Shown piece by piece: positions 844 to 36,716 of a stretch of DNA of 36,716 bases (position 1 is its first letter; every line of letters begins with the position of its first letter). The notes below the pieces were generated by a model that had not been told where the DNA came from, did not search any database, and saw only the letters and a program-made list of their open reading frames with translations. The stretch lies in contig JAWOEX010000001.1 of NCBI GenBank assembly GCA_046482545.1, forward strand, positions 1 through 36,716, given 5' to 3'. This DNA is from Candidatus Thorarchaeota archaeon (GTDB lineage Archaea; Asgardarchaeota; Thorarchaeia; Thorarchaeales; Thorarchaeaceae). Made by a program: the position numbers and the translations under genes.

Positions 844-2560
844 ATCCCACAGCGTATTTTATCGTCATTTCCCTCACTCGGAGGGACGTATTCGCAGTCG
901 TTACCTCTGCAAGACCAAAGCACCTGAATAGGATTTAAACCAAGTGTAATCTCTTTGCCAGACTTTTTTGATCTGGTTTTGAATTTCTTCAACGCATATG
1001 TGGATTGTCTGTCGGGTGATATAGTGAAAGAACTAGGTATTCCCATTGTTTTGGTAATAGCAGTCGGGTTCACAGCGAGCTCCAGAATTTCGGCCTCTAG
1101 CTGTCTTCTCGAAACCATCCTTACTTCCCACTCAACACACACTCGGGGCAATCGTGTATCTCCTAGGATACTCATTTTACGAGACGTATCTCTTAGGAGA
1201 AGCCTGCCATACAAATCACACATCAGCTCCAATGCGAGGTTGTTAATACATGAATAAATACTCTGGTAGCCTTATTAGTCTAATTCAAACGTATGGAAAT
1301 AATACTTACATATTGTTCCAAAAAATGTAGTATATGAGGAACTTGGGTTGGTCAGCCCATATCCAAAGAGCACTTTCTCGCGAAACCCTCAGTTAAATAA
1401 TCAGTATGTCAACAACTTCGACAAAGAAAGAGCCGCCTTGGAATGGCTCTTCCTGCATTCGTTACTGGATATCTTGTAGGTCTGACCGAAGTCGCACATG
1501 CTTCTCATCATGACCAAGAATAATTGAACAAGTCTGTATTTGGAAATACAGCCAGAGCTCTTATAGAGTCCCAATCTGTTAGTCTCCAAGGTGATACCCC
1601 TTGAAAGTATGTCAACTGTCTGCCATTCTACTAATTGCCGTTATTCTCCCTACTAGCCTCTGAGAACTGATTTTGGGTACTAGTCGAAAACAACATCTGG
1701 CGTTAGCACTTGTTTCTCTGCCTTGGCTTCAAGCTCTTCAACGCCTACTTCCGGTTCTAAACCCTTTCTTTTCAATATGGCGAGTAGAAGAATATTGAGG
1801 ATAAAAGCAATCAGCAGCAGTGGAAGTCCTTGGAGGAAATTATAGATTACACCCGCAATTAGTGATCCTACTGCAAGGGATAGCATTATTGCAGTTTTTG
1901 TCAGACTGAGCATTTTACCCAAGTCTTGACGAGGCAAGTATTTCTGAATATATGTATCAATGAGGCTTTGCCATAGAACATCATTGATTGATTTCATAGC
2001 CGTTGCGATAAAAGCTAGTGAAAAAATCACTTTCAAACCGGGAAATATGGTATCGACAAAAGAAACCCACGCAAGTGGGGCCGCATAGGGAATATACTGG
2101 GCAATGATGAGCAAGCCAATTGCTATGGGCATTACCGCATAGATAACTACTGTCAGTTTGTATCCCCCATTCTTGTCGAATAGATGTCCGATGAGCAGCG
2201 TGAGCGGCACTGAAATCAGTAATGTTATGAATAGAATGAGGTTGATTTCATGCATGCCGAAATCCAGCGTCTCGTTCATATAGTATAATTCTGTGAATCT
2301 GTAGAAGCTGTCACTTAGTGCGTCAACGATCAGAACCGCCAAAAACACCGGGAAGACTTTCGCCAAGAGCTTCAATCCTCGAGAATTCTCGGATTTAAAG
2401 TCCTCAAGAATATGGTCTACATCTTGTTGTCTCTCAGGTATTTTGGTTGATTTCAGTACTGTTGCCCGGATGACTGCGCAAACCGAGTATAGGATACCGG
2501 CTATAAAAAGCAGGATTCTCATCACATCTACAAATACCCCTCCAAGATTCAAGAATAGGC

Positions 2561-2630
2561 AAGTTTTACACAAATCCTAAAAAAATCCGAGTGGAAGAGT
2601 GTAAAATATCTGTAAGATTTCCTGTAAGTG
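2561..2630. repeat. Left-end array of ~11-bp-spaced TGTAARAYTT-like motifs in inverted and direct orientation (copy 1)
   Basis: aagttttaca 2561, aaatcctaaa 2572, then tgtaaaatat 2600, tgtaagattt 2611, tgtaagtg 2623. Confidence 0.7.
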
Positions 2631-2655
2631 CTACTGTGACCGAGGGCGGTAGGAC

Positions 2656-2662
2656 TTTATTA
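2656..2662 (+). promoter_or_regulatory. Putative archaeal TATA box for the element RNA (copy 1)
   Basis: GGAC(T/C)TTATTAGGCCCA is conserved in both copies within otherwise divergent sequence. It lies ~25 nt upstream of the conserved TTTCAGTAGGACTAGG where the structured region starts. Confidence 0.6.
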
Positions 2663-2685
2663 GGCCCAGTACGAAATTTCGTTTC

Positions 2686-3114
2686 AGTAGGACTAGGCAA
2701 GTGGGCTAGTGTTGTAACACGACGCACGCGGCCGAAAGCTGCAAGGAAGACTCGTTCTTCTAAACAGAAGTCCTCACTCTCCAAACAAGGGGCTTCATCG
2801 AGCTCTGGAGAGTCCGCGGCTGTTCACCTTGTCCGTAATGGACCTCCTCAGCTACGGCGACAAGGCTGAGGTGGGTGATCATGACCACGCCGTGGCAAGA
2901 ACTGTGGAAGACCTCGCTGTTGCCGGGAGTGATGACCCGGGACAACGACAGGAGACAGAAACCAGGACCGCGGGAGGAACCCTGTTCCGGTGAACGCGGA
3001 CAAAGCCCCTGCTGACTCACGGGCCTACGGGTACCGTGGGAGCGGCGATGCTGGCAGGGGAAGGGTGGAACACAGAAGTTTCATGCAGTTCCTAGAACTG
3101 TAAGAAATGGGTTA
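2686..3114 (+). ncRNA. Large structured ncRNA of unknown family, copy 1
   Basis: GC-rich stems with compensatory substitutions relative to copy 2. The cUACGg tetraloop (3025-3030) and G-U wobbles indicate the + strand. Ends are approximate. Confidence 0.8.
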
Positions 3115-4136
3115 TCAAGAGAATGCTCACGACGTAGAGGGGAACCAGACCGAGTCCCGTACCGAGAGTGAACAGACTTTGTGCTACTCCACCGAATTTC
3201 CTATCGATTTGTTCCATATAGTAAGCTCTGCCGGCTGTTCTCGTAAAAGCTGAAGCCCCGATAATTATCATTGAAACAGCAAGTGTACGAAAATCACCGG
3301 AAACTGAAAGCAAAAGGTATCCTGCAGATGATAAAGCCATAGTCCCAACAGCAATCTTTCTCCTATCGTAGTTGTCAGCGAAATACCCCGAAACGAAGTT
3401 GCCAACAAGTCTGATTCCAAAAAGAACTGAAAACAGTATCCCTATCAGAACATACGAAATGCCAATATCTCTGAAGTAAACGGCAAAGTAGCGGTCTAGG
3501 ACTAACATACTGCTGTATATCCAAACGGTAATGAGATATACTGAGCAGTTTCGTTTTGCAGTGACTCCCCTAAAGGATTCCTTCCAACCAAGACTAGTTG
3601 CTTCTGGCTCCTCTGACGCGGAGTTATCTCTCTTTTCAGTTTGGCATACTTGAGCTGCCCCCATGAAGTTACCAGCTCTGAGAAAGGGTGGGCGTGACGT
3701 TGCTTGCTTCTAGGCGAATCAGGTTGGGCATTGAATTTTCCTGAATCAGTGTGAATCTCTCACTTGATGTCCGATGAATTTCGTTTTAAAAAATTTCCTC
3801 AAACGTACTCGTGCTATAGATAGAACGGTGAACGAAAATAGAGAATAGCGGCCAATGAAGCATGTAGGGATTGGTGATAGTAAGCCACTTTCGCCATATG
3901 GCGTTAAGATATCGATCGATGTATGTAGCAAGTCTGGATGTCCAGTTTCGGCACAAAGCTAACTTTCGAGTCTCCTATCTCGTTATCCTCGGTTCTTTCA
4001 TTTCCAAACAGAAGACTAGAGAGACATTGCAGATACATCGTCTGCGAATGGCCGAAGGAGATAAGTAGGATGCTTCGAGATAGGTGATTTATCTAAGGCT
4101 CCACTTGGAGCAGAGAAAAGAAAGTAGGACAGATTA

Positions 4137-6133: not shown

Positions 6134-6442
6134 ATGGAACGTTGGAAAGTATCAAATACTTGCGTCTATAATTTAGGTTATCATTTGATATGGTGTCCTA
6201 AATATAGAAGGCCAGTATTAGTTGATGATATTGCTGGGAGGCTAAAAGAACTCCTACGGGAGAAAGCATCTTCAATATCTGTATCAATTAAAACGATGGA
6301 GATATTGCCTGACCATGTTCATCTTTTTGTTAAGACGGTTCCGAATGCTCCACCCCATTGGATTGTACAACAACTGAAAGGTTATACTTCGAGAACATTA
6401 AGACAAGAGTTTTCTTCATTATTGAAAATGCCAACTCTCTGG
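6134..6442 (+). mobile_element. tnpA: Truncated IS200/IS605 Y1 transposase
   Basis: YNLGYHLIWCPKYRR, HUH motif DHVHLFV and LKGYTSR..PTLW. Similarity stops before the catalytic Tyr helix. The segment is AT-rich. Confidence 0.9.
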
Positions 6443-6962
6443 AACAACCTTTGGACTCTTCCATATTCTGATAATGGCAGCTCTCATATTTTGTGGACTG
6501 GGCGACATCGCCATGGAATACGATATTTTACCGGGCCTGGGACTTTTTCTAATTGCTCATATTCTCTTCACAGCAAACTTTGGATTTCACAGTCTGGCCA
6601 ATCTAGGATTGGTCCCTATTCTTGCATTTATTCTGGCTATGATTTTTCTTTCTTGCTATATTTTGTTCTTTCACAAGTATCTCCAGGGTGCAGACGAACC
6701 GACGGAATTACTCCCGGGTGTGGACGTTTACGCAATTCTTATTTCGCTGACTCTTGGGTCTTCTCTACTTCTTTGGCTGTCTACTGCTACCATGTTGGGA
6801 TTTCTACCTCTTTTGGGAGCAGGTTTCTTCATCTTCTCGGATTCGCTAATCGGTGTGCGAGAATTCCATCATAGATTCAAATACGATGAAACGCTCACTA
6901 TGATTACTTATTATCTCGCGGTCTTCCTGTTATCACTTGGAAGTATTGTGTACGCTCTCTAA
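6443..6962 (+). pseudogene. 5'-truncated YhhN/TMEM86 (lysoplasmalogenase-like) membrane protein
   Basis: ALIFCGLGDI..GLGLFLIAHILF..GAGFFIFSDSLIG..MITYYLA are YhhN motifs. The N-terminal helices are missing and replaced by the tnpA fragment. Confidence 0.75.
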
Positions 6963-7034: not shown

Positions 7035-10000
7035 CTAATCCATGCCGTCGAGTAAGACATCAATCTCTGCCTTGGTCAATCCTTCCGCATTCTCCATTAT
7101 GAGATCTATTTCATCTTCCGCGATTCCCAGTTTCTCAAGGCGCTCTCTTATATCCGCGAGTTCCTGTTTTGTGACTGTTTCTTTCTTCTCTTCTTCGTCC
7201 TTCTTCTCGCTTATTTCTTCAGCGCGCCTTGCCTTTTCCTGTGTGATAACTTCCATGACAAATCCTGGTCTCTCAGATGGCTTCATTCGGAACAGGTCTT
7301 GACGAAATGCATCGACATCTTCTTCGGTGAGGCCAGTGATTTCAGCGAGTTCGTCTAGAAGATCCTCGATTTCGGGGGCCTCTGATATGATGGTCTCTTC
7401 CGGAACCTCATCTATAGGCTTCTGGATATTGTAAACGCTCAGAGATTCATTAATCATATTCTGGAGCATTTCATCTCTGCGAGAGACCTCCGGAGCATCG
7501 GGTACCTTTCCGCGAGATACATCCTTAATCATTCCATTGAGCCAGCGAATCATTTTCGGGACACTGAAAACTTTCACATACAGAAGAGCACCAATGAGCA
7601 GCAAGATTATTGAAGCACTACCACCCAAGGTCAAAGCTGTCATGAGTGGGTCTTGGGTTTGCGGGGTTGCTACAACGGTGATAGTAACCTCCTGGCTCTC
7701 GTAGTTGTTTCCTTTTGATGCACGTATAGTGATATCAAAACTGTAGTCAACAGGAACAACAAATTCGATAATGTAGGTTCCCTTTTCGTCTCCCTCAGTT
7801 ATGGTATAGTCTTCCTCCTTGATGAGTAACTCTGCCTGTTCAACAACGATTTGTGCATCGCTGATGGGTAGGTCATGATCAATATCGAGGAAATCAACAC
7901 TGAATTGAATGGTTTCACCAACTATGGTTTGAATATATGGGTCACTCGGCGAGAGCTCAGTTTTGATTCTCCTTACAATCACAGTAACTCTTGCCGTTGC
8001 GGTAGTGTAGTTGGTTTTACTCAATTCAATCTGAGCAGAATATGTACCTAATGGGATGTTGTCTGGAATCGCAACTGAGTAGTTTCCCTCTTCAGTGCTA
8101 TTTAGAGCAATCACGCCAAATGACCAAGTGAACGAACCTACGGCGGTGGACACAGGCTCATCGTAATATGTGTCATTGTAGAATGCACTGATGGTGTACG
8201 AGTCGCCAACCGGTATTTCGTAGAGATCTGCGACAATCACCTCAGTTGGTATCTTCGATACCTCTAATGTCACAGAGGTTGTTCTTGTAATGTAGTTGGA
8301 TTTAGAAGCGCTAACAAGAACATCATATACGCCCGGTCCAACATCATTACTATCCAATGCAAGACTGTACAACCCATTTCCGATTTGCTCTGCGTTTCCT
8401 CGTCCCGAAATCCATCGAAACTCAAGTGTAGCATTCTCTATGCTCCTGTTGTAGTACTGATCACTGAAATTGAACCAGAATGTTGCTGACTGCTGATGTA
8501 CGATTGTCAGTGTGGTGTTCAGCGGTGAGAGCACGCTTTGTATCGGTGAAATTTCCGCTAGTATGATTGCCGTGCCGGTTTCGTATCCTGGTTTACTGGC
8601 AACGACATAGATTGAGAATGAACCTGCTCTGAACAGAGAGCTGTCAAAGCTGCCCTCGTAAATTCCTGGCTCGGTTTCCGTAAGTGTACCGTTGTAGTTA
8701 GCGTCACCAAAGCGGAATCGTGTATTTGCATTGCTTACAGGGACACCACTTTTTTCATCTGTAAAATTCAGGTTCAAGTGAACCTCTTCTCCGTAGACTG
8801 CCCGCACTGTTGCTTCTCCGATAGGAATGAGATTTGTCTCAACAAGTTTAACATCAAGACTTAGGTAGAGGCTTGCTTGAGCATGGTTTGACTTGTTTGC
8901 CCTAACGTAGAGCGTGTATACATTAACTTCGGCACCTGTAGTATTGATAGTGGTAGTGTAGACGCCTGGGGTTTCAGTCGCTGTCAGAACTCCTTCACCG
9001 TAGTCCCAGAGATACGATATTGTTGCATCCTCTATTCCCGTATCATTAGTGTCAACACAATAGTGCACAGTGAGATTGACAGGCTCTCCACTCGAAATGC
9101 TGTACGAGTATTGTTCGTCAGCGGTGCAGAGATCAGTTTCAAGTACTGACAGCACCAAGGTGATTTGCAGCATTCTACTTTCATAATTCGTCTTGTTTGC
9201 ATTGACCGTCACTGTATGTGTACCGATATCAACGAACGAGGTGTTGATTGTTCCGTTGTATGTTGTTCCATCGAAGTCTAAGTTGAACACCTCTCCCTTG
9301 AGAGTGGCTGTGACAGTTGCATTCTCTACTGGTACTTCCGGGTATTCCTGTTGGTACCAGACTGCCAAATGGAACGGATCACTCCAATTTAGCGTCACCG
9401 CGGTACTTTCTGGTTCTAATCGGGTTATCACTTGTTTAAGATCGATGTCTACAGTGAGGGAAGCACCACTATAGTCTTCTGCATCAGCAGATATATCATA
9501 GGTATATGTGCCGTACGGTGATTCCCATAGTAGGAATGTAACATTGTACTTACCGTCTCCTGTCGGAGAGAATATTGCTTCTGGGGTGCTGGGATTAGTG
9601 TATATCTCTGCTCCAACCACCAGTATATCATGGTCAATATCCTCATACTCGACAATGACAGAAACGTTCTGACCTGCAACTCCAGAGGTATCCGAATCAA
9701 TACTCATTGAAGTGCGAATTTCTCTGACTCTGAATTTCACCTTCGCACCAGCGTCGCTATGTAGATCTTTAGTGGCTGTGAAAGTAACTTCATAGCTGAG
9801 AGTGTTAACATTTTCTGTGAACAAAGTAACAAGAAAGCCACCCGTTGAGCCATGTGTCCAGTTCCAGCCATAGTCCCAGTCGGTCGACAAATTGGCTTGC
9901 GTGACATTGATTTCATGATCGGTATCGCGGTATGAGAGTTCAAGCGTTACGTTATCTCCTACAGGGACGATACCCGGTTCAGGAGGAGTAGCGCTGGCTG

Positions 10001-13000
10001 ATGTTGATATGAATCTGATAGTGATTGACACAGTCGTATCCTTAATTGCATAGAAGGACTTATTCAATGTGAACTGGATTTGATACTTGCCAACAGATGG
10101 AACGCCATCGGTTTCCAAGGTGACATTCAAACTACCATCACTCAGTTCCTTGTACGACCATCCATAGGTCCACGAAGTTTCGATACTGGCATTAGATATC
10201 ATCAGGTCATGGTCGAGATCCAGATATGCTACTCTTATGCTTACATTGTCTCCGACCGGTACAATTCCGGGATCTGGGGCGTCTGTAGTAACTTGGGTAT
10301 AGACGTTTCTTACAGTTGCCCTGATTCCGGTATCGTTGATAGCGGGGTAATAGGGTATGGCGGTCTCATTCCAAACCACATCGATTTCGAAATACACATC
10401 ACCCACATAATCGAACTGCGAGCTGTTGATGGTAAAGCTGTATACCCCAGCATCTGGATAATCCAGAGTATAAACGAGTTCCTGACCAGTAGTCTCATTC
10501 AGGGTGGTAAAGGAGATGAATACATTGCCGCTTTCATTGGATATTCCTTTGTCATTCACGCTATCCCGATATTCAAACTCAATCGTAATATTGTCACCAT
10601 GTGGTGTGTGTGCAGGGGGGGTATACGTCAGAATAGCATTCGCTCCAGTGACGGAGACATCGAAATCTAAGGAGCGGTTCGAATAGAATGGAGCGCCGAG
10701 TACCCAGTTGAAGCTCGCTTGGAAAGTGAATTGTCCCGTTGCGTTGAGCGCTGTGACATTTATTGACATTACAAATTTTCCGGGTTCGGTTTCTTCAATC
10801 CACCAAGGAACAGAGATATTTGTTGTAATTCTGATACCTTCTTCAGTTGTGTTTGTAACTGGCTCCTCAGAATCTCTGTCCTCAAAATAGAAAGTCACGG
10901 TCGCGTTATCACTGTAGCTTGTCTGCGCGATTGGTGCTGTTGTTAATTGGGTATTCCGGGCCCGAACATCACTATCAATCAGTACCGTCTGATTCTGATA
11001 GTGTGACTCTGTCATTCCACTTACTGAAATCGTGAGAATATAATGGCCTATAGTCTCAAGCTTCGATGTATTGACACGAAGCTCGTACTGTCCTTCACTT
11101 GTCGATGATATGGAATAGTAGGAAGAATCCACCGGTGTACCGTTAACTGCGTCTAGACTGAAGTAGGATTCTGCATCTGTTATGCCCGTGAGCCCGGCAT
11201 CAACGTCAGTGTATTCCAGTTCTACTGTCATATCATCTGAATATGGTGTTTCAGGAGGTACCACATAGGTCAATCTGGTTGCCCTTTCTCGAACCTGAAC
11301 CGTAAGTGATTTGCTTCTGTTCGCATAGAATGGTTCTCCATAGTACTCTGCTGATACATCTACTGAGAATTTTCCGATGTTCCCAAGAGCAGTACTGTCA
11401 ATACGGGCCGTGTAGTCACCAGCACCGTGATCCTCGACCCAGTAGTTAATTTGCTTCACTAGGCTCTCGTTTGCATCTGTGCTGATAAGAGTGAAGTTGA
11501 CTCCAGGCACGCCTGTGGAGTTTTCAACTCCTTCAAAATAGAAGGTAATGGTAACATTATTGAGATAGGGTGTCCTCCCCTGCACCTCGTAAATCATTTG
11601 AGTTGGTCTCTGGAGGACTCTGCCTGTAATCGACCTTGTTGTTGTATTCGCCCAATAGTAAGGTGTATTCGGATAGATGAACCTGATGTCCAAACCATAG
11701 TCGGAAAGCTCCCCCAGTATTCCGGTATCGAATGAAACATTGTAGTTACCCGATCCCATGTCAACAATCGAAATGGCACTATCATCAACATCTTCTGGTT
11801 GTGTAAAGGTTACTGATAGGTTCTGCTGCATGTTTTCGAGGCCGGTACCATCGGTTCCGTTATCCAAATCAATCAAAGTGACCGTGAACGAAACCTTGTC
11901 AGCATAGTATACGGACTGGGGTGGCTCTATGCTTAATTCTACATTGCGATGCTCAACCCGAACTTGAATTGACCTACTCCCATCAGATAGCCACCATTCA
12001 GACGTGGAGTTCAACTTGACCTCTAAGTAGTACTTGTTGGGCTCACCCAGTGCTTCGGTACTTATGTTTAGCAAGTAATCGCCATCACCCAGATAGGTGA
12101 ACCAGAAGTTGCTGTCTTGAACGAGGTCTTCTGCAGAGGTTGCACAAGAGAGATACAACTCCGCGCTCGAAATTGGGTCAGCGGGATCCGAATCGATATC
12201 AAGATAGGTCAGATTGAAAGTCATGAAGTTTCCATAAGCTACCCCGGGGACAGAGCTATAATCAAGCGTGGTTGTTCGTTCGTCTACGGTGCCGGTTACA
12301 TTCCTAGACACCAAGGAGTAATAGGGGCCAGTTGTGGTGTGATTGAAGACGACTCTGACTTTGTAGGATCCAACGCTTCCCAAACTCGAAGTGTTAAAAC
12401 TAACGCCATACTGTCCGTCCGTTCCACTCAGGTATTCCACAGTGGGGGTCCCACTGGCACCTTCGGGCAAGAGAATCTCGACGGAGATGTAGCTAGCATT
12501 GTTGTTTATGTACTCGAGTGAATGAGAGTCTTGAAGGACGAACGAGAAATTTACATCTTCCAAGTAGGACACTGGTAGCGGAAAGTCAATGTCCATATTG
12601 GCGATTCTATATTCAATAGTGACTGAAACACTTACATCTGTCTGGTTCTCATAGAATGGAGTTCCTGACCAGATGACTTCCAAGTCAATCGAGTTTACGC
12701 CCAGCATATCAGTTTCCTTAGTCATTATTTCAACTGTGTAGAAATCTTCTGCAGTTGGAGTGTAATTCACGGAGTATGTGTATCCGCCTAGGACCGTAAT
12801 ATTGAGAGGTGCGCCAGTTACTAATTGGCTCTCGTTATCGAGGTCTACATACTGTAGGAACAGCGTAAGATTATCTCCATATGGCACAGGATCGGCTTTT
12901 ATCTGGGATATTGCTGTATCTCGAACCCTAACATGTATTGATACGCGTCTGTCAATTTGGTCTTGGTAGTATGGTTCTTGGTCAGGGTAGGTCCAGTTGA

Positions 13001-16000
13001 GAGTGATTTCAAAACGGTACGTTCCACATGCATCGAGATAGGTGGTATTGAGGAGCAAGAAGAACGTTGCATAAGTTCCTGTATCTGCTCCTTGAACGAT
13101 ATCAATTATCGCAGAGTCTGAGGTATTGAGTCCTACCTGATCTAGCGATACGACAGTAGCTGTTGCATTATCTCCAAGTACCACGTCGACAGGATCACCG
13201 GAATCGCTATCACCCCAGTAGAATGTTAAATTCGCTTGATTGCCGAAGGGAACCGGGTCTAGTGGATCCCAGCTAAACTCGGTTTGGGTTCCCCTGACCT
13301 CGAATCCTACTGAAATACTTTGATTCTGGAAGAATGGTGCCCCCGAGAATGTCATATTGATTTCTATATCAGTCACCACAAATGGGGTGAACTGGCTTGC
13401 CGGCATCTCGAGAATATACTCTCCAGGCGTTGCACTGGGTGAGACATAATATTCCGAACTATTCGTGGTTAATGTAATAGCACCCTCGTAAGTCGTATTG
13501 TCGATTGCAGCACCATCGTTGTCGGAGTCGGCATATTGAAGGATTACAGTTACATTATCTGTGTAGCCAACACTCGATATAGGATCATAGGTGAGCAGTG
13601 TATAGCGGTGTCTTACGTAGATTTTCGTGTATATGGTTGCATTCTTGTAATTCCCTAATTCACCAGAATTCTGCGTTTCAATTTTTACCCACACGTTTCC
13701 TATTGAATCCAAAGCTGAGGTATTCACTTCAACAGTGTAAATCCCTTCACCGTTATCAGTAATCATCCAACTTCCTGTGAGTGAGCCATTGACCACGACT
13801 AGGCTAGCGTTAGTTATTGTTTCACCGGTGCTAAGGTCCAAGTACTTCAATTCGAATGTAGCATTAAGGCCATATCCTGTGCTCTCTGGAGCGGAATACA
13901 ATTGCAGTTCTGTAGAGTGCCGGCTGATTGTAATTGAGACCTGTAATTCGCTGCTACCGTAGTATGGAATGATATAGTCATAGGTTACGTTGATGAATAG
14001 AGCATGAGTTCCTACCTCAAGGGAGTTGGGCAAGATGAATCTGTATGCATTCAGGTTTTCATCCCAATACGCAGTGGGTTCGCCTAGGTCCGGATTAGAC
14101 GCGTTTTCTCCTGCAAGTCCGATATGCAATCCACTAGTGGAATTCCTTACAATATCTGTAGTCTCGCCGTCTGTAATATGAATTGTAAGCTCAATATCTT
14201 CCTCATATGGAGTGCTTCCGGCTGGATCTGAGGTTAGAACAAGAGATCGATACTTCACCTTGAAGGTGAAGGTTGTGGAGGCATCGCTTTCATATCTTGA
14301 TCCCAAATACGTGGCAGTAGCTGTTAGTTGATAGGAGCCTGGTTCTAGGAACGCTGTAGTGTTGAGTTCAACCGTGTATGTGCCGTCTCCGTTATCCACA
14401 ACTGTATAATTACCACTCAAGGTTAGGTTTGGGTTTGTTATGCTGATATTGTTTCCATCCATGCCAATACTCGTGTCATCAATGAGGTCGGTGTAAGTCA
14501 GACTGAAAGTGACGTTACTGTTGTAGAAGGTGGGAACTGGTGCTGTGTAGGTGAGTTGTGTAGGCCGTTCAGTTATCTTGAGCGAAACGCTTTTGGTCTG
14601 GTTTTGATAGAATGGCGGTCCTGTCCATGTAATGTTGAGCTCAAGTGAGAATGTTCCCGTACTGCCTAGAGAAGCTGTATCAACAGTTATTGTCCACTTT
14701 CTGGTGGAACTACTGTAACTCTTGTTGTAATCAACTCCTAGATTGTTCAGCTGCACATAGAGTTCTGTAGAATTCTCGATTTTTGTGTTGGTTGGTGAGT
14801 CGTAGTACGCGAAACTGAATTCCGCTATTTCATCGTATGCAGTGTTCTGTGGCGGTGTTACATCCACAAGAGTTGTTCGAACTAGAATAGTTACTGTGAT
14901 GTCCAAGGTTTGATTCTGATATAGTGGATTCACATTCTTGCTCCAGTTCATCCAAAGACGGATGCCCATCTCGCCGCAGGTTGTTAGGCGGGAGGAATTC
15001 AACAAAATCCGATAGTGACCTGGGAATTCGTTCCTGTCAACTTCTGTGATGTTGAAATCAGATGAGGTGACAGGCTGTCCAGATGTCAGCATTTCTGCTC
15101 TTCCCCACACATCCCCTGTATCGTTGATTATACCCTCTCCAGTTTCCGCAATCTTGTACAGCAATGTGAAGTTGATTAGATCACCATAGTATACAGCCTG
15201 TGGGCTAACAGCCACGGTTAAGTCTGTGTCAGTGCCTGTTATTTCTACTGTGAAACTCTCGGTCAGGTTCTGGTATTTCAACGAACCAGTCCAATTAAAG
15301 TAGACAGTGAAGTTATATTGCCCTGTCCCGCCAAACTGGTCGGCAGGAATCAACACTTTGTAGTGGCCATCTCCGAGGTCGGTATTGGGCTCTACATACC
15401 ATATCGCTGAAGTGTTGTATTCGTTTTCAACATCAACTTGCACTTGGCCTGTGTCATTAGTGATGCCCTTAGAGAGTGAAAGGTCTTGGTAGAACATGGC
15501 AGCTGTTATGTTGACACCATAACCGGTATCTGTGACTGGTTCGTCAAAGGTTAAATAGGTTGAATGCGCCTCAATTTTCACCGTGATTTCAACGGACCCG
15601 CTTTCGTAATTCTGTCTGGTCACATTGAATTCAACGGTATAGGTGCCTAGTGTTGTATTGTCAAAGGTTAGCAGCTTGATGTCGTAGATTCCATCATTAT
15701 CATCATCAGATATCTCAACTCCTTCGGTCCAGTTGTGTGCGATGGTAGCATTCTCAACATTGATATCATGATCGACATCCTTGAACTGTAAGGTGAATGT
15801 AAGATTGGTATCAAGCGGTACGTTGAAATTGTAGCCTGATGCCAAAACATTCGTTTCTATGTATCTAACGGTGAATCTGACGGTGGTAGTTGCATTCTCG
15901 TAACCATCTCTTACACACATCGCAACAATTGTATAATCGCCGATATCGAGATTAGAGGTATTCATCTTAACTCTGTAGTGACCTTCACTCAGCCAAGTTA

Positions 16001-19000
16001 CCCAGAAATCTGTACCATTTTCGTATTGGGTGTCGTTTAGATAAAGGCTACTGAAATTGACCTCTAAACCATCGAGATCACGGTCTCTGAAAGTTATCTC
16101 GAATGTGAGGTTATCACGATAAGGAACTGGGTCTGGAGCAGGGGCATAGGCTTCAGTGTATCGTCTCCTGATTTCAATTGTGAGAGAGGCCTCGCCATCA
16201 TTGAAGAATTTGGTTTGGCCTGAGCCCGAAGTCAATACTTCTACCTGTTTACTGAATAACCCGACATTCCAATCGTCGGTATCAACAATGACTGTGAAGT
16301 TTCCGTTATCGTACGCCCATGTGGTAATCTCTTGTCCATCAATCACGATTTTGGTAACATTATCTGAGCTGATTATTGTTGAGCTGTCACTTATGTCAAA
16401 TATCCTAATCCTTACCGAGGTGTTATCTGACCATGGCGTTGACGCAGGGCGTATTGCTTCCACGCTGATGCTATGGCTGACAATTGAGACACTTCCGGTT
16501 GTCGAACTATCTGTGTAGTTCTTTATGGGGTCAACAAAGGATACTTCGAATACAAACAAGTATTTTCCAATGGACTTGTCAGCAGTATAGAGCGTTAAGC
16601 TAAACGTTCCTGCATCATAGCTGAAATCACTGCTAGTGTAAGTGGTTCCATTAACCGTCAAAAAGTCGATTTGAGCAAGCGGGACGACATTTGATTCATT
16701 GTCGAGATCAGTTATGGTTACATCTACTGTTGTATTTTTGCCCCAGCCCCTCGGTGATACAGGTGAGAATGTGAGTTGTGTTTTGTGCGCTCGAATGGTG
16801 ATATTTACCGTGGTCTCGTCATCGGTATAGAACTTGGTGTCATTCGAGTCCGTAGTGACTAGCGAGACGTTGAGCGAGGAAGAATCTACCATCCAATTCT
16901 CAGTGTAAAGGTCCACCACGAGCCGTGCCTGGGTATCGACCACTGAGTAAGTCCATTTTGAGGCGGTGAAATTTTCACTCCCGATTAACAGATAGGATAT
17001 GTTTGATTCTGAAATGACTTGATTGGAATTGTCCAAGTCACTCAAGTAAACCAATACTGTAGTGTTGCTGCCCCAAGGCGTGTTTACTTCTTGAGTCTGG
17101 GCAGTAACTAATAGGTTGTGCCGACGAATAGATAAGAAAACGTCTGAGTCAGCATCATCGTAATACTTGGTTGATCCACTGCCAGCTGAGTAGAGCTGCA
17201 CATTTTCTCTAACTTGGTCCTGAATTGGCCAGCTCGTCGTATCGTATATGACTGTGAGCTGAGCATAGCCTTCTTTCTGTTCGTATGTCCAAGAAGAGCT
17301 GGTAAATGTCTGGTTGCCGATTTCAACAGAACTGAGATTGCTTTCTGAAACTACAAGTGAGGAATTATCTAGGTCAGTGATTTCCATAACAATTGTTGTG
17401 TTCATCCCCCATGGTGTGGGTTGGGGTGTTCTGACACTTAGCTGTAACAGATGTGATCTGATGGTGATGGTTATCTCGCCACTAGCATCAGCATATAACT
17501 TGGGACCAGAAGTGGTGACAATACTAACATCATAAACACCCGAGCCTATAGCCCAGCTTCTAGTATCCACTGTCACCGTGAAAACACCATCGGAGAAAAT
17601 CCAGTCCGAAGCACCGAATGTCTGGCTTCCGACGGAAATCTGAGATATGTTACCCGGCCCGATCTGGTTATTGGGGTGGTCAAGGTCCTTCAGTGTCAGA
17701 GAGACGTTTGTTTTCCAGCCCCAGGGTGATTCATCAGGGTGATAGACGGTTGCCATAGTATCGTGTGCCCTTACTGTAAAGTCGACATCAACTGAACCAT
17801 CTTCGAAGAACTTGGATGCGCCGTCCCCTTCTGTGTAAACATCTATTGTAATCGCATATGTGCCTACGTTCCAGGCATTAGTGTCCAAGGTGAATACGAT
17901 GAAAGCAGCTTCAGAACCAGTATTATATGTCCAGTTTTCTGACGTAAAGATTTCAACTCCATATGATGAAGTTAGTTCAATCCTGGAAAAATTAGACTGG
18001 TCGATTATTTGAGAAGCGTTGTCAAGGTCCTGTATTGTTAGATTGAATTCTGTGCTGTTCCCCCAAGGTGTTTCTCTTGATGGGAATGTTGAAACACCTG
18101 TGTGATGGGCTCTCACAGTCACTGACAGCTCCTTGGACTGTGTTTGGTGCCCGGTTGCTGAGCAAAGTACATTCATTGTGTATTCACCGGGCTCAACACC
18201 GCGAGTATTGAGTGTCACTTGCCAAAAACCAAGCGTGGAGTTATACTCGGGTCCTACGAGCGATCCTCCAGTCTGCTCAGCCCAATCTATTTCTACTGCG
18301 ACTTCGGGAGCTGTATTGTCTATCGGTCTGGCTGCTACAAAACCCAGAAAGTCTAGATTGTACTGGAAATCAGTTGTATGCGTGGCATTGATACGAATCC
18401 GCACTAATCCTAAAGGTGATACAAACTGGGACGCAGAGAGGGTTCTCCATGTTTTAGTGACGTCCTCCGTTGATGAATAATCGGTTATGATTGACATCCA
18501 ATTCGCTGAGGAATAGTTGTAGACTTCGACCAAGCCTGATACGCCTGAAGTGTTGTAGTGCCCCTCAACCTTGTACGTCAAGGAGACCATATCTGAAGCA
18601 CTGAGACCGTAATCTGTAATATTTGTCTCACCAGTTAGAGAAATCTCAGCTCCCTCGCTACTTATGTTGACATAGTCATTGTTCGAGGAATAAGCTGCAT
18701 CTTCTTCAGGATCATTAGGAAGACCCGGATTAGCTGTTAACTGGCTGGGTTTCATGGCTACTTCATCATCGTAACTAAGAGCGATTTGCTTTGAATTACC
18801 CCAGGCGATGTCATAGTCTACACGCTCGCGTCTGTCCCCTAGGTGAACTATGAGATGGGTTCGCTCTTGCACTTCAACAGAAATTGATGTGGTTTCAACG
18901 AAGTCATAATACTCCTTGGTAACGTTTGTCGTTATGTCGTAGGTCCCTATGGATGCAAGTGAGGTATCGAGTGAACCTGCATACCATCCATTGCCTGCAT

Positions 19001-21450: not shown

Positions 21451-21640
21451 CGTGGCTTTCTTTACGGGTAGGCCTTCTCAGAACACAGAGATACAGGCCG
21501 GTGTTTGGTGTTATCAGGTCTCTATTATGATATAAAATAAAGATGTTAACATGCATCCCATGTCTCTGTCAGTGCCAACCAATCAATATCTCTTTTGTGT
21601 AAAGATGGAAACCCTCATGTTTTCCAGTTCAAGAAAAGGC

Positions 21641-21708
21641 AAATCTTACAAAAATCCTAAAAAATCGGAGTGAAAATGTGTAAGATTTGTGTAAAACTTC
21701 TTGAAAGT
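21641..21708. repeat. Left-end ~11-bp-phased repeat array (copy 2)
   Basis: aaatcttaca 21641, aaatcctaaa 21652, then tgtaagattt 21679, tgtaaaactt 21690. Confidence 0.7.
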
Positions 21709-21734
21709 ACTATTTTCACGTCGAACGAGGGGAC

Positions 21735-21741
21735 CTTATTA
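21735..21741 (+). promoter_or_regulatory. Putative TATA box for the element RNA (copy 2)
   Basis: CTTATTA in the same context and at the same spacing as in copy 1. Confidence 0.55.
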
Positions 21742-21764
21742 GGCCCAATATGAGACTTGATTTC

Positions 21765-22204
21765 AGTAGGACTAGGGCGGTGGGCCACTCCCCCACGGGA
21801 GAAGCGCCCAGCCCCGAAGGCTGTGAGGAAGACCCCGTCTTCTAAGCAGAAGTCCCCACTCTCCCGCAACGGTTCTCCATCAGACCGGGGAGAGTCTGCG
21901 GCTGTTCACCTTGTCTGTAATGGGCCATCTCGGCGGCGGTGACAATGTTGAGGTGGGTGATCATGACCACGCCGTGGCAAGAACTGTGGAAGACCTCGCT
22001 GTCACCGGGAGTGATGTCCCGGGATGACGACAGGAGGAGGAAGCCAGGACCGCAGGAGGAACCCTGTTCCGATGAACGCGGACAAAGCCCCTGCTGACTC
22101 ACGGGCCTACGGGTACCGTGGGAGCGGTGACGCTGGCAGGGGAAGGGTGGAACACAGAAGTTTCCGCAGTTGGGTTCACTCACTCAACTGTAAGAAATGG
22201 GTTA
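21765..22204 (+). ncRNA. Large structured ncRNA of unknown family, copy 2
   Basis: Same stems as copy 1 with compensatory changes; the 3' half is nearly identical. Confidence 0.8.
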
Positions 22205-22229
22205 TCAAGAGAATCAGATTCTCGATATA

Positions 22230-34363: not shown

Positions 34364-36716
34364 TCACTCATCTTTGGATTTGTCTTTTTCTGGCGTCCCC
34401 TTCTTTTCGCGCAGATGCTTTTCCACTTCTTCTAGAAATGCATACATTTCATCTTCGTGTTCTTGTAATCCTTCACTTTTCGGGATTTGCTCCATACCCT
34501 TTTCTGGTTGAGGCTTTGCGGATCCCTCTTGAGTAGTTTCGCTGCCATTCCGGATTTCTCTTTCGAGCTTGTCTGTAGATTCGACTGCATGTTCCTTGTC
34601 CTCAGAAGGTTGTTCTGTTTGTGTCTCTAATTCATCTCGGCCCACATCTTTATCATCAATAACCTCTTTTGGTTCCATTGAGTCGTCTTCACGAATCGGT
34701 TCTATACTTTGGCTTTCAACACCCGAAAGCCCTAGGCCACGACGCGTCATGAGGGTCTGTACACTTATTGGTTTGATTCCACCTTCTTCATGGAGGGTGA
34801 GGAGCGTTTCTAGTGTTTCTGCTTCGGTTTCTTCCAGTTTTTCGGACAGAGATTCCAGAATTTCGTCTATACAGAATTCTCCTCTCTCGTCTAGGCTGTC
34901 TTGGAGGAATTGTAGTATGGCCTTATCTTCCTTCCTGATTTGCTTCTCATCAACAATCTTGTGTGGAAGAAGCCAGTAGTAGTCGAGCGTGGATATCAAG
35001 TTCGAAAGCACCCATTCAGGGTCGAAGCATTCAACTTTTCCTCTCCAATCTTCAAGGTCTTGCTCATACTGGCTCTCAAACATATCGACAAAGAACTCCA
35101 ATCGACGTTTGAGAACAGGACTCATCTCCGATTCGAGAATAAGTATACCGATGATGAACCGGCTACTGTAACTATTGAGTCTGAGTCCATGATAATGTAT
35201 TTCCTCAAGTGTCCCCTTTACACCCCCGTCACCTGTTATTTCGCCGTATACATTTGTGATAGCGGAGATGAAGCCGCTGATTAAATCTGGCTCTATGTGT
35301 TTTTCAGTGAACGGGAAGTAGATGACACATGTACCGTGTTCTGTATAGATTGCCATGAAATGTTGCAGCGTTGAGAGCTCTTGGAACAGGTCAAGCTGTC
35401 TCTTCAAGGATAACCGGCCAGCTTCTCTCCGTGGTTTGATAACTTTCTTGTAAGCTAGTGTAGCCACAATGGTGATTATTGCAATGAGTATAGCAAATTG
35501 GGCCAACGGCGTACGGACAGTCTCGATGAGCACCTCAATGAGACTTGGAGATGGCCTCACCTCTACGGTGAGAACATTTGTATCCGCTGCCCATTCTGAA
35601 ATAGAACCATCATATCGGGCCCAAACTTCAAGGTTCTCAGTGTTGGATGGTATGTCAAAACCAGCATTTGCAACCCCCTCTTCGTTGGTTACAGCGGTTT
35701 TGCTCTCGACCGTTTCACCGTCAGAGCGTGACATTTTTACAAAGAATACAACTGTTCTTCCTGATAGTGGATTACCATCACCGTCTTCCAGTATTGCTTG
35801 CAGCGCAAGGGCTGAACCTTCGGTTACAACTGTGGTATTCGAAACAAGCCCTACAGTAAGCGTGTATTCTGCCTTCGCCAATACTTGCAGTGATATTTCA
35901 TCTTCCACTGTTTGGCAGTCGATTGCGGTAGCAGTAACAGCGACCGTATAATCACCAGGAGTGATTGATGAGTTGAGCCAGATACTTCCTCTGTATGATT
36001 CGGTGTTCACATCATATTCGAGCGCATATGTCACGCCTTCAAGCGTGAGGTTAACCTGCGCGAAATGAACAAGCTCGCCATGATAAGTCTCATTGACGAG
36101 GACTGAAACAACCATTGATTCATTCTCGTAGACGCTCATCTGTATATCGAAGAGGAGTGAAAGTGGAAGCCTCCTAACTGCGATTGAAGGTTTTTGGGAT
36201 GCAGATTCATAGCCGGTTTTGGAACATGTAAGTGTCAGATTGTAGCCGTCCGCGTGCACATTGGTGCTGTGAAGTGTGAGCGAATAAGTGAGATTTTCAT
36301 TCTGAGTGAAATCATATGTTCCAATCCAGTCAACTGACGGACTACTACCCCCAACACGTGCTGAAGTTCTTTCATCAAGATACTCTACTGTCAAAGTGAG
36401 TGAATCATTTACGTACATTTCATTGCCATTGTAAATCTGAAGCGTGGTTGGAATAGGCGATACCTCAACTTGGAACGTCTCTTCTCTGGAGACAAAGCCG
36501 TAGGCCGAGGTATTGATGATGCAGTCATGTATCCCGGTTCCAAGTGTAGTTCCGTTGAGTGTAACTTCCCATTGAATACCTGTCCACTCTGCTGAGTGGT
36601 TTTCTCCATCTACCGTGAAGATTAGTGTCGCAGGTGAGATACTTGATTCATTATCCATGGAATATTCTATAGTGAGATTCACCGTACCATCATAGTAGAT
36701 GCTCAGGCTGGTATGA
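34364..36716 (-). CDS. C-terminal part of a large surface protein: Ig-like repeats, TM helix, longin-like cytoplasmic domain and acidic tail
   Basis: The frame stays open to the window edge. Repeats resemble those of the 4610-aa protein. TM is FAILIAIITIVATLAY, followed by LQHFMAIY..GTC..PDLISGFISAI..FESQY. Confidence 0.85.
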   Translation of the reverse strand, partial: HTSLSIYYDGTVNLTIEYSMDNESSISPATLIFTVDGENHSAEWTGIQWEVTLNGTTLGTGIHDCIINTSAYGFVSREETFQVEVSPIPTTLQIYNGNEMYVNDSLTLTVEYLDERTSARVGGSSPSVDWIGTYDFTQNENLTYSLTLHSTNVHADGYNLTLTCSKTGYESASQKPSIAVRRLPLSLLFDIQMSVYENESMVVSVLVNETYHGELVHFAQVNLTLEGVTYALEYDVNTESYRGSIWLNSSITPGDYTVAVTATAIDCQTVEDEISLQVLAKAEYTLTVGLVSNTTVVTEGSALALQAILEDGDGNPLSGRTVVFFVKMSRSDGETVESKTAVTNEEGVANAGFDIPSNTENLEVWARYDGSISEWAADTNVLTVEVRPSPSLIEVLIETVRTPLAQFAILIAIITIVATLAYKKVIKPRREAGRLSLKRQLDLFQELSTLQHFMAIYTEHGTCVIYFPFTEKHIEPDLISGFISAITNVYGEITGDGGVKGTLEEIHYHGLRLNSYSSRFIIGILILESEMSPVLKRRLEFFVDMFESQYEQDLEDWRGKVECFDPEWVLSNLISTLDYYWLLPHKIVDEKQIRKEDKAILQFLQDSLDERGEFCIDEILESLSEKLEETEAETLETLLTLHEEGGIKPISVQTLMTRRGLGLSGVESQSIEPIREDDSMEPKEVIDDKDVGRDELETQTEQPSEDKEHAVESTDKLEREIRNGSETTQEGSAKPQPEKGMEQIPKSEGLQEHEDEMYAFLEEVEKHLREKKGTPEKDKSKDE

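What the first reader, a model, noticed from the sequence alone, without database searches (positions are those of the whole stretch)
2686..3114. Covariation-supported ~430-nt ncRNA on the + strand
Differences between copy 1 and copy 2 preserve pairing. GUGU/ACAC hairpin (2709-2720) becomes CUCCC/GGGAG (21788-21801). GCGGC/GCUGC becomes CAGCC/GGCUG. CUCUCCA/UGGAGAG becomes CUCUCCC/GGGAGAG, with inner GGGGCU/AGCUCU becoming CGGUU/GACCG. GUUG/CAAC becomes GUCA/UGAC. The terminal CAGUUC/GAACUG becomes CAGUUGGG/CUCAACUG. A long-range helix UCCGCGG(2813-2819)/CCGCGGG(2968-2974) becomes UCUGCGG(21895-21901)/CCGCAGG(22050-22056). A cUACGg tetraloop and G-U wobbles fix the strand. Purine-rich joining segments (GGCAAGAAC, GGAAGACC, ACACAGAAG) are invariant, as expected for a ribozyme or RNP scaffold (inference).
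Basis: partly seen in the sequence, partly recalled or inferred. Interest (0 to 1): 0.92.

Follow-up and report, generated by a model that had tools for sequence, protein, structure and literature searches.

The report
Orphan TnpB guide-RNA mini-transposon
The folded RNA is real: it is the unusually long guide-RNA scaffold of an RNA-guided DNA-cutting enzyme (TnpB) from an Asgard-archaeal jumping gene, carried here by a gene-less mini-copy, so it is not a new ribozyme, although its parent element shows an apparently undescribed second, small guide RNA aimed at its own promoter.

Summary
Real structured RNA on the + strand (2686-3115). In a 156-sequence alignment, 31 of 124 consensus pairs exceed a tree-aware null. 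It is the ~430-nt omegaRNA scaffold of a Thorarchaeota TnpB: it follows tnpB in 120/120 loci and overlaps its reading frame. Here it sits in a 566-bp gene-less mini-element (about 105 hits, 32 full copies in this genome) that has split an MFS gene. The parent is an 8.3-kb element with a Cas1-fold giant protein and TnpB, the published but untested Cas1H-Asgard class. The scan already called other copies in this genome orphan omegaRNAs and found tRNA-matching guides in other genomes. Added here: a covarying 3' pseudoknot; guide placement directly after GGUYA(U/G); a near one-base (T) TAM; a heritable TCNNGA junction; and a conserved ~63-nt leader RNA upstream of tnpB. The leader is complementary to the long RNA's 3' hairpin and ends in a 13-15-nt match to its own promoter (81% versus 2.5% across loci), suggesting tracr/crRNA-like autorepression. 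No function was tested.

The parts
2549..2554 (+). Left junction hexamer TCAAGA (TCNNGA class), copy 1
2555..2624 (+). Left end of the element: direct and inverted TYTTACA/TGTAAGA motifs, shared with the 8.3-kb aCas1-TnpB parents C28:141696 and C20:236758
2656..2662 (+). TATA-like box TTTATTA about 25 nt before the RNA, conserved among mini-copies (promoter function inferred)
2686..3115 (+). omegaRNA scaffold, about 430 nt and about 20 helices; the first ~255 nt are the fossil C-terminal coding tail of TnpB, here out of frame. The 5' end is inferred
2882..2886 (+). 5' strand (UGACC) of the predicted pseudoknot with GGUUA at 3110-3114
   Evidence: C-G to U-A double change in 7 sequences
3079..3107 (+). 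3' hairpin; in copy 1 the GUUCACUCA loop is deleted
3115..3120 (+). Right junction hexamer TCAAGA
3116..3130 (+). Predicted 15-nt guide (host flank; matches the empty MFS allele)
   Evidence: position inferred
3121..3664 (-). 5' half of the interrupted MFS transporter gene
1680..2554 (-). 3' half of the interrupted MFS transporter gene; removing the element and one hexamer gives a 472-aa frame, ungapped against three of five orthologues
21629..22210 (+). Copy 2 of the mini-element (intergenic): TCAAGA at both ends, TATA-like box at 21735, RNA 21765-22205, intact GUUCACUCA loop at 22174, guide position 22206-22220

Best explanation
The RNA is the scaffold of the omegaRNA (guide RNA) of a Thorarchaeota-specific TnpB nuclease, carried by a non-autonomous deletion derivative of an aCas1-TnpB transposon. 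SHOWN: structure, strand, position at the tnpB 3' end, multicopy insertion, and parent element with the same ends. INFERRED: the mini-element's own TATA promoter makes the RNA, and TnpB supplied in trans by the genome's five full-length tnpB frames binds it. The scaffold closes with the UGACC/GGUYA pseudoknot, and the next ~15 nt act as guide with little more than a T as TAM. For these copies the guide is host flank, so the complex would cut the element-free allele (for copy 1 the intact MFS gene) and favour retention or homing of the insert, as shown for other TnpBs. Mobilisation is in trans, most simply by the aCas1 giant, the only integrase-like gene found in the parent. In the parent, a ~63-nt leader RNA probably pairs with the long RNA's 3' hairpin and swaps in a guide against the tnpB promoter (autorepression). 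Copy 1 has lost the loop needed for this; copy 2 keeps it.
For: The RNA begins about 16 nt after TnpB residue 452 in 120/120 loci with room, and all six TnpB zinc-finger hits in this genome abut a copy. Frame is kept through the overlap in 97/97 tnpB-linked copies, against 11/13/11 across the three frames in this genome's copies, nearly all of them minis. Covariation. Pseudoknot double change 7 vs 4/5/120, Fisher p 1.6e-6; independent pairs go the same way about 3.6 of 6 and never the opposite way, but the sign test cannot reach 0.05. Such a pseudoknot is general to TnpB omegaRNAs (10.1101/2023.11.20.567912). Guide position: the 15 nt after the scaffold match a tRNA at >=13/15 in 19/78 loci vs 1/138 controls (two of the 19 are mis-called ends, about four are insertions inside the tRNA, one control-type hit is to a doubtful tRNA), and match a site 30-200 nt downstream at >=12/15 in 10/69 vs 1/345 shuffles. 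Leader: identity to own promoter 13.4/15 vs 9.1/15 across loci, ending sharply at position 13-15, T at -1 in 71/73; duplex with the long RNA -24.8 vs -11.2 kcal/mol shuffled, own better than cross in 40/55. TnpB catalytic motifs are intact in the rearranged form (alternative Glu 120/120, RuvC-III 120/120). Partner domain: the top 12 structural matches are Cas1, Z 13.8, rmsd 3.9 over 202 residues. Metatranscriptome contigs of three studies cover 2549-3115, far deeper over the RNA than over the left end.
Against: No binding, cleavage, processing or transposition was tested. The RNA contigs give no strand, ends or level, may include DNA and pool about 100 copies. Private substitutions in mini-copies mostly break pairs (104 break, 35 keep), so many copies decay after insertion; shared ones mostly keep pairs (586 vs 303). 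The RNA is about twice the 221-bp RE/omegaRNA of CboIStron, so part of it may be trimmed off. The promoter duplication could reflect a local duplication or transcription-factor constraint instead of base pairing. The heritable NN core fits serine-recombinase chemistry better than a plain Cas1 duplication, yet no such enzyme was found here.
Confidence: 0.88

Rival explanations
1. RNA-guided integration: TnpB with this RNA steers the aCas1 integrase (a TnpB-Cas1 analogue of CAST). Full guides home to tRNA genes; a short seed (T then CNNGA) sets the loose target of the mobile lineage, so daughters inherit the parent's NN.
For: aCas1 keeps E100, H165 and D175 in 55/55 sequences and lies head to head with tnpB in most loci with room. 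Guides match tRNA genes lying 40-130 nt from the scaffold end or at the far end. NN is the same at both ends in 23/29 copies and tracks the left-end lineage (62% vs 14%; permutation 123 vs null maximum 89). No serine or tyrosine recombinase was found in this 98.9%-complete assembly.
Against: The TnpB is predicted to be an active nuclease, unlike Cas12k. Similarity between flank and end stops at the hexamer (positions 7-12, p 0.10). Guide-to-target distance and orientation vary. Resident tRNAs often carry mismatches or an intron within the match, which fits escape from cutting.
Confidence: 0.2
2. The mini-element is moved by an IS607-type serine transposase in trans (2-bp NN crossover); aCas1 is a passenger or has another role.
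For: Only hexamer positions 3-4 show strong own-versus-cross identity (0.83/0.35 and 0.90/0.37; position 5 is 0.79/0.80). In other Thorarchaeota, IS607 tnpA sits next to the aCas1 3' end (L244, L245, L247, L256, L260). IS607 TnpA passes the donor's core dinucleotide to the product. The TnpB has the rearranged RuvC-II.
Against: No PF00239 match in G000, G001 or G002. The tnpA-linked ends have different motifs and a GG-rich core. The two complete 8.2-8.3-kb parents here encode no such gene.
Confidence: 0.3
3. The window copies are inert fossils: the structure is inherited from the parent and is merely copied along with the ends.
For: Private substitutions break pairs 3 to 1; only 27/73 right ends keep TTCACTCA; many copies are truncated.
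Against: The mini-copies keep a conserved dedicated TATA promoter absent from the tnpB frame, retain the whole 430 nt, show compensatory changes at 34/119 pairs among themselves, and copies 1 and 2 keep 114 and 111 of 119 pairs. The RNA region dominates the metatranscriptome contigs.
Confidence: 0.2
4. A ribozyme or self-splicing intron (IStron-like, RNase P-like) that hides insertions or cleaves nucleic acid.
For: Large size, many helices, 88 columns at least 97% conserved.
Against: No Rfam hit; a separate RNase P RNA exists; copy 1 is antisense to the gene it interrupts, so it could not splice out of that mRNA; only 4/16 clean insertions lie in long frames, in both orientations; strict link to tnpB.
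Confidence: 0.04

Closest known systems
aCas1-associated TnpB transposons of Asgard archaea (Cas1H-Asgard-1/-2; Altae-Tran et al. 2023, PMC10691335; aCas1 from Makarova et al. 2020, not readable here)
   Same: Cas1-fold giant next to TnpB, repeats at the ends, GTTCACTCA motif downstream of tnpB, glycine-for-glutamate RuvC-II rearrangement of the type the paper describes.
   Different: The paper gives no RNA structure and guesses the guide lies upstream of GTTCACTCA. Here that stretch is one arm of a hairpin and the guide maps downstream of GGUYA(U/G). Gene-less mini-copies, the TCNNGA junction and the leader RNA are not in its main text (supplements were not available).
TnpB omegaRNA/reRNA of IS200/IS605 and IS607 elements (ISDra2, CboIStron; 10.1101/2023.11.20.567912)
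   Same: Overlaps the tnpB 3' end, ends at the right end, 3' pseudoknot, guide from the flank.
   Different: About 430 nt against 221 bp for the CboIStron RE/omegaRNA (ISDra2 about 230 nt, from memory); about 20 helices instead of three stem-loops; TAM apparently one base; no Y1 or serine TnpA in the parent.
Non-autonomous omegaRNA-only elements (standalone omegaRNAs, PATE-like derivatives; from memory)
   Same: Keeps both ends and the RNA, loses the genes, high copy number.
   Different: Symmetric end motifs and a duplicated hexamer instead of subterminal hairpins; own TATA promoter.
Promoter-targeting short guides of CRISPR systems (Cas9 tracr-L, Workman et al. 2021, cited in PMC8730458; crRNA-like regulators) and Cas12f tracrRNA/crRNA pairs
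   Same: A short guide matching the locus's own promoter; a long scaffold pairing with a small guide-bearing RNA.
   Different: Found in a transposon TnpB locus without a CRISPR array; no report was found in two literature searches; predicted only.
Casposons (Cas1 integrase transposons; from memory)
   Same: Cas1-fold integrase, insertion at tRNA genes in relatives, target duplication (11 bp in L114).
   Different: No PolB gene in the two complete parents; TnpB and RNA present; 2-6-bp junction in this lineage.

Membership tests
TnpB omegaRNA | Encoded at and overlapping the 3' end of tnpB, same strand | tested here: met
   120/120 loci; frame kept 97/97
TnpB omegaRNA | Conserved secondary structure with covariation | tested here: met
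   31/124 pairs above the null maximum
TnpB omegaRNA | Pseudoknot between an internal strand and the scaffold 3' end | tested here: inconclusive
   UGACC/GGUYA nearly always pairable, one covarying position (Fisher 1.6e-6), but too few independent pairs
TnpB omegaRNA | 12-20-nt guide directly 3' of the scaffold | tested here: met
   tRNA, nearby-site and promoter matches all start at this register; computational only
TnpB omegaRNA | Binds TnpB and directs DNA cleavage | not testable with these tools
   needs RNP assays
Cas1H-Asgard aCas1-TnpB transposon (parent) | Cas1-like gene next to tnpB | tested here: met
   Z 13.8 to Cas1, top 12 hits all Cas1; four intact copies in the genome
Cas1H-Asgard aCas1-TnpB transposon (parent) | GTTCACTCA motif downstream of tnpB | tested here: met
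   copy 2 at 22174 and most tnpB loci; deleted in copy 1
Cas1H-Asgard aCas1-TnpB transposon (parent) | Locus flanked by repeats | tested here: met
   C28:133388-141696 with TCAGGA at both ends; C20:228520-236758 with TCTGGA
Cas1H-Asgard aCas1-TnpB transposon (parent) | Placement in group 1 or 2 of the published tree | not tested
   reference sequences and supplements not available
IS200/IS605 | Y1 TnpA within the element | tested here: not met
   absent from both complete parents; the genome's only Y1 hit is a truncated gene at window 6134, not next to any copy
IS200/IS605 | No sequence repeated at both junctions | tested here: not met
   hexamer identical at both ends in 18/29 copies
IS607 | Serine TnpA | tested here: inconclusive
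   not found in G000-G002 (draft genomes); present beside aCas1 in other genera with different ends
IS607 | GG core dinucleotide | tested here: not met
   NN is AA, AG, TA, TG, CA, TT and others; GG once in 63
Casposon | Family B DNA polymerase gene in the element | tested here: not met
   the complete parents hold only aCas1, tnpB and one 206-224-aa ORF without Pfam match
Group I/II intron, IStron, RNase P, other Rfam ribozymes | Match to the family covariance model | tested here: not met
   no hit at E<=1 in the region; true RNase P RNA on C34
Group I/II intron, IStron, RNase P, other Rfam ribozymes | Catalytic activity of the RNA | not testable with these tools
   needs in vitro assays

The most novel reading that the evidence does not exclude
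The 430-nt RNA is a dual-use scaffold. In cis it carries a homing guide (flank or tRNA). In trans it acts like a tracrRNA: its GUUCACUCA loop captures a small crRNA-like leader whose 13-15-nt guide sends TnpB to repress its own promoter. The same nearly TAM-free complex may also steer a Cas1-fold integrase. This would be a natural intermediate between single-RNA TnpB and two-RNA Cas12 systems, and possibly an RNA-guided Cas1 transposon. I put leader autorepression alone at about 0.55 and guided integration at about 0.2; the probability given is for trans pairing with guide swap.
Probability: 0.4. Interest if true: 0.85.

Novelty: new variant of a known kind. Interest (0 to 1): 0.58.

Why it matters
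As given, the finding is an omegaRNA in a mini-transposon: a known kind, and one this scan has already recognised. It still matters for three reasons. It defines the RNA and guide position for the Cas1H-Asgard TnpB class, which the describing paper left open, so the system can now be reconstituted. Three separate lines (promoter sites, tRNA or nearby targets, insertion sites) point to a TAM of about one base, useful if true for a compact nuclease. And the leader RNA offers a testable case of a TnpB scaffold splitting into tracr-like and cr-like parts, the step thought to have produced Cas12 systems. About 34 kb (1.1%) of this genome matches the element, and it disrupts genes.

Tried and rejected
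Rfam: nothing. RNase P or SRP look-alike: rejected, a true RNase P is on C34. Minus-strand or intron reading: rejected by G-U/A-C counts and orientation. IS200/IS605 reading with a TTGAT target: rejected, other copies vary at these positions. Serine, large serine and tyrosine recombinases: none found in this assembly; not proof of absence. Similarity of right flank to left end beyond the hexamer: not significant (p 0.10). Mini-copy guides hitting other genomic sites: 32/69 at >=14/15 vs 35-39% null, no signal. Whole-element tree for NN inheritance: mostly unresolved; only the youngest four-copy clade (98/97) shares CAAG. Guide located upstream of GTTCACTCA (published guess): that stretch pairs with the downstream arm. 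First AlphaFold model from 4 sequences unusable (pLDDT 49). Foldseek alone gave Cas1 only at E 0.01; sequence searches of aCas1 found nothing. The 224-aa ORF has no match. Sigma-70 scan is not apt for archaea. MFS flanks had almost no RNA contigs, which proves nothing. Makarova 2020 could not be read. Heimdall-like relatives (G061, G103, G040) have related TnpBs, but neither this RNA nor aCas1 was found in the three regions examined. The covariation test is my own R-scape-like implementation with 12 nulls, so E-values below about 0.08 are not resolved, and neighbouring or lineage-linked columns also score high.

Full report
Observation. The window holds two copies of a ~570-bp sequence (2549-3120 and 21629-22210, 80% identical). 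Rfam finds nothing there. I aligned 156 non-redundant homologues from this genome, its relatives and tnpB loci and scored covariation against tree-preserving shuffles. 31 of 124 consensus pairs exceed the null maximum, spread over 15 helices. G-U pairs outnumber A-C 515 to 129 in these columns, so the + strand is right. GCGGC/GCUGC and the long-range helix 2813-19/2968-74 are two-sequence artefacts: the same bases covary with other partners (2698-2731, 2740-2766, 2741-2765, 2971-2996). The 'invariant' linkers and the UACG loop vary widely.

A mobile element. The genome has 105 hits, 32 of them near full length, covering 34 kb; 25 of 36 genomes of the same family match, and none of 24 more distant ones. 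Copy 1 splits an MFS gene on the minus strand. Removing it with one TCAAGA restores a 472-aa frame collinear with five orthologues. Junctions are TCNNGA; NN is the same at both ends in 23/29 copies and follows the left-end lineage (62% vs 14%). Both ends carry TYTTACA/TGTAAGA motifs 9-10 bp inside the hexamer. A TATA-like box about 25 nt before the RNA is conserved among mini-copies.

The parent. All six TnpB zinc-finger hits in the genome abut a copy of the RNA. Homologues are annotated as Thorarchaeota. In 120 of 120 loci with enough sequence the RNA starts just after TnpB residue 452, and the first ~215 nt stay in frame in 97/97 tnpB-linked copies but fall in all three frames among this genome's mini-copies. 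Two complete parents of 8.2-8.3 kb have the same ends and matching hexamers and encode TnpB, a 1,400-1,650-aa divergent protein and one small ORF. The giant's N-terminal domain (pLDDT 82) has the Cas1 catalytic fold (Z 13.8, rmsd 3.9, 202 residues; top 12 hits all Cas1) with invariant E/H/D residues. TnpB has Gly at the usual RuvC-II Glu and an alternative Glu in 120/120 homologues. This matches the aCas1-TnpB class of PMC10691335, including its GTTCACTCA motif.

Where the guide is. The scaffold ends in GGUYA(U/G). An unpaired internal UGACC (2882-2886) can pair with it, and C2885-G3111 changes to U-A in seven sequences; the tree-aware test agrees in direction but has too few pairs. The next 15 nt behave as a guide in relatives: 19/78 match a tRNA at >=13/15 against 1/138 controls (two are mis-called ends, about four are insertions within the tRNA), and 10/69 match a site 30-200 nt downstream against 1/345 shuffles. 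The neighbouring tRNA often carries mismatches or an intron within the match (L127, L089, L074, L147), as expected if the resident allele escapes cutting (inference). In the mini-copies the scaffold end is the element end, so the guide is host flank and would match only the empty allele; no excess of other targets was found. A T precedes the match at 71/73 promoter sites, 6/10 nearby targets and nearly all insertion sites, which suggests a minimal TAM.

A second, small RNA. Upstream of tnpB lies a conserved ~63-nt unit: a TATA promoter, two hairpins, a stretch complementary to the long RNA's 3' hairpin and loop, the same GGUCAG end, then 13-15 nt identical to the promoter 30 nt before the unit. 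Identity to the locus's own site is 13.4/15 against 9.1/15 across loci, >=13 in 81% vs 2.5%, and falls to background at position 16. The leader-scaffold duplex averages -24.8 kcal/mol vs -11.2 shuffled, and own pairs beat cross pairs in 40/55 loci (loci are not independent). The simplest reading is a crRNA-like leader that displaces the cis guide and sends TnpB to block its own promoter. Copy 2 can pair with the C28 leader (-33 kcal/mol); copy 1 has lost the loop (-14). I found no report of this in the literature searched or in the scan's notes. A local duplication is the alternative, but it would not explain the fixed register and length across genera.

Expression and selection. Contigs from four metatranscriptome runs (three studies) cover the element, with summed depth roughly 3 to 60 times higher over the RNA than over the left end. 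They give no strand or ends and pool many copies. Copies 1 and 2 keep 114 and 111 of 119 pairs; changes shared among mini-copies mostly keep pairs, while private ones mostly break them. So lineages that spread keep the fold and individual copies decay.

What moves it is open. aCas1 is the only candidate found in this assembly. The heritable NN suits a serine recombinase, and IS607 tnpA does sit beside aCas1 in other genera, but with different ends. Seed-guided integration would also explain it, but no homology extends past the hexamer.

Verdict. A real structured RNA, a long TnpB omegaRNA in a non-autonomous aCas1-TnpB derivative: a new variant of a known kind. Earlier scan notes reached the omegaRNA reading for other copies in this genome and the tRNA-guide reading in other genomes; I re-derived both. 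All functional steps are inferred.

Noticed in passing
window 6134-6457 (+): IS200-like Y1 transposase fragment, the genome's only PF01797 hit; similarity stops at profile position 98 of 121, before the usual catalytic tyrosine, and the ORF runs on in unrelated sequence.
   Followed up: partly
window 7035-20867 (-): 4,610-aa protein with weak MG2 and filamin-type Ig-like hits; a 772-aa Ig/MG4 protein lies at 34364-36682. Copy 2 sits about 760 bp upstream of the giant's start.
   Followed up: no
L114 and L069 (element ends); G000 C26:212896-212972: Elements inserted in the anticodon arm of tRNA-Arg; L114 shows an 11-bp duplication and carries a replacement tRNA-Arg that mismatches its own guide. 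This genome has a tRNA-Arg(CCG) with a damaged 5' half on C26.
   Followed up: partly
L127, L089, L149, L048 (tRNA next to the element): The neighbouring tRNA-Tyr, -His or -Asp genes carry non-canonical introns in or right beside the guide-matched stretch; in L127 the guide matches the intron-less form.
   Followed up: partly
L119, L156, L186, L124 (after the scaffold end): The guide-position 15-mer is repeated 21-54 nt downstream, in some cases behind a second GRTTAT-like end, like a tiny array or nested insertion.
   Followed up: no
L244, L245, L247, L256, L260: IS607 serine transposase genes convergent with the 3' end of the aCas1 giant in other Thorarchaeota genera, with GG-rich left ends.
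   Followed up: partly
L272, L273 (complete 3.1 and 3.3 Mb genomes G061, G103): Related multi-copy TnpB (35-39% identity) with a different, shorter downstream region and symmetric TTACGTAA end motifs bounded by CATG; no aCas1 nearby.
   Followed up: no
G000 C18:5194, C41:16771, C20:181881: One copy sits against a decayed left end of another, so its guide matches other copies' left junctions; one copy has lost its left end by deletion between two TAGGCAAG stretches; two copies lie back to back sharing a junction.
   Followed up: no
G000 whole genome: No tyrosine recombinase (PF00589) was found although all 14 control genomes have one; may be an assembly gap.
   Followed up: no
L151, L152, L171 (upstream of tnpB): tnpB is preceded by the 3' end of another omegaRNA copy in place of the leader unit, with the promoter-like 15-mer in its guide position.
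   Followed up: no
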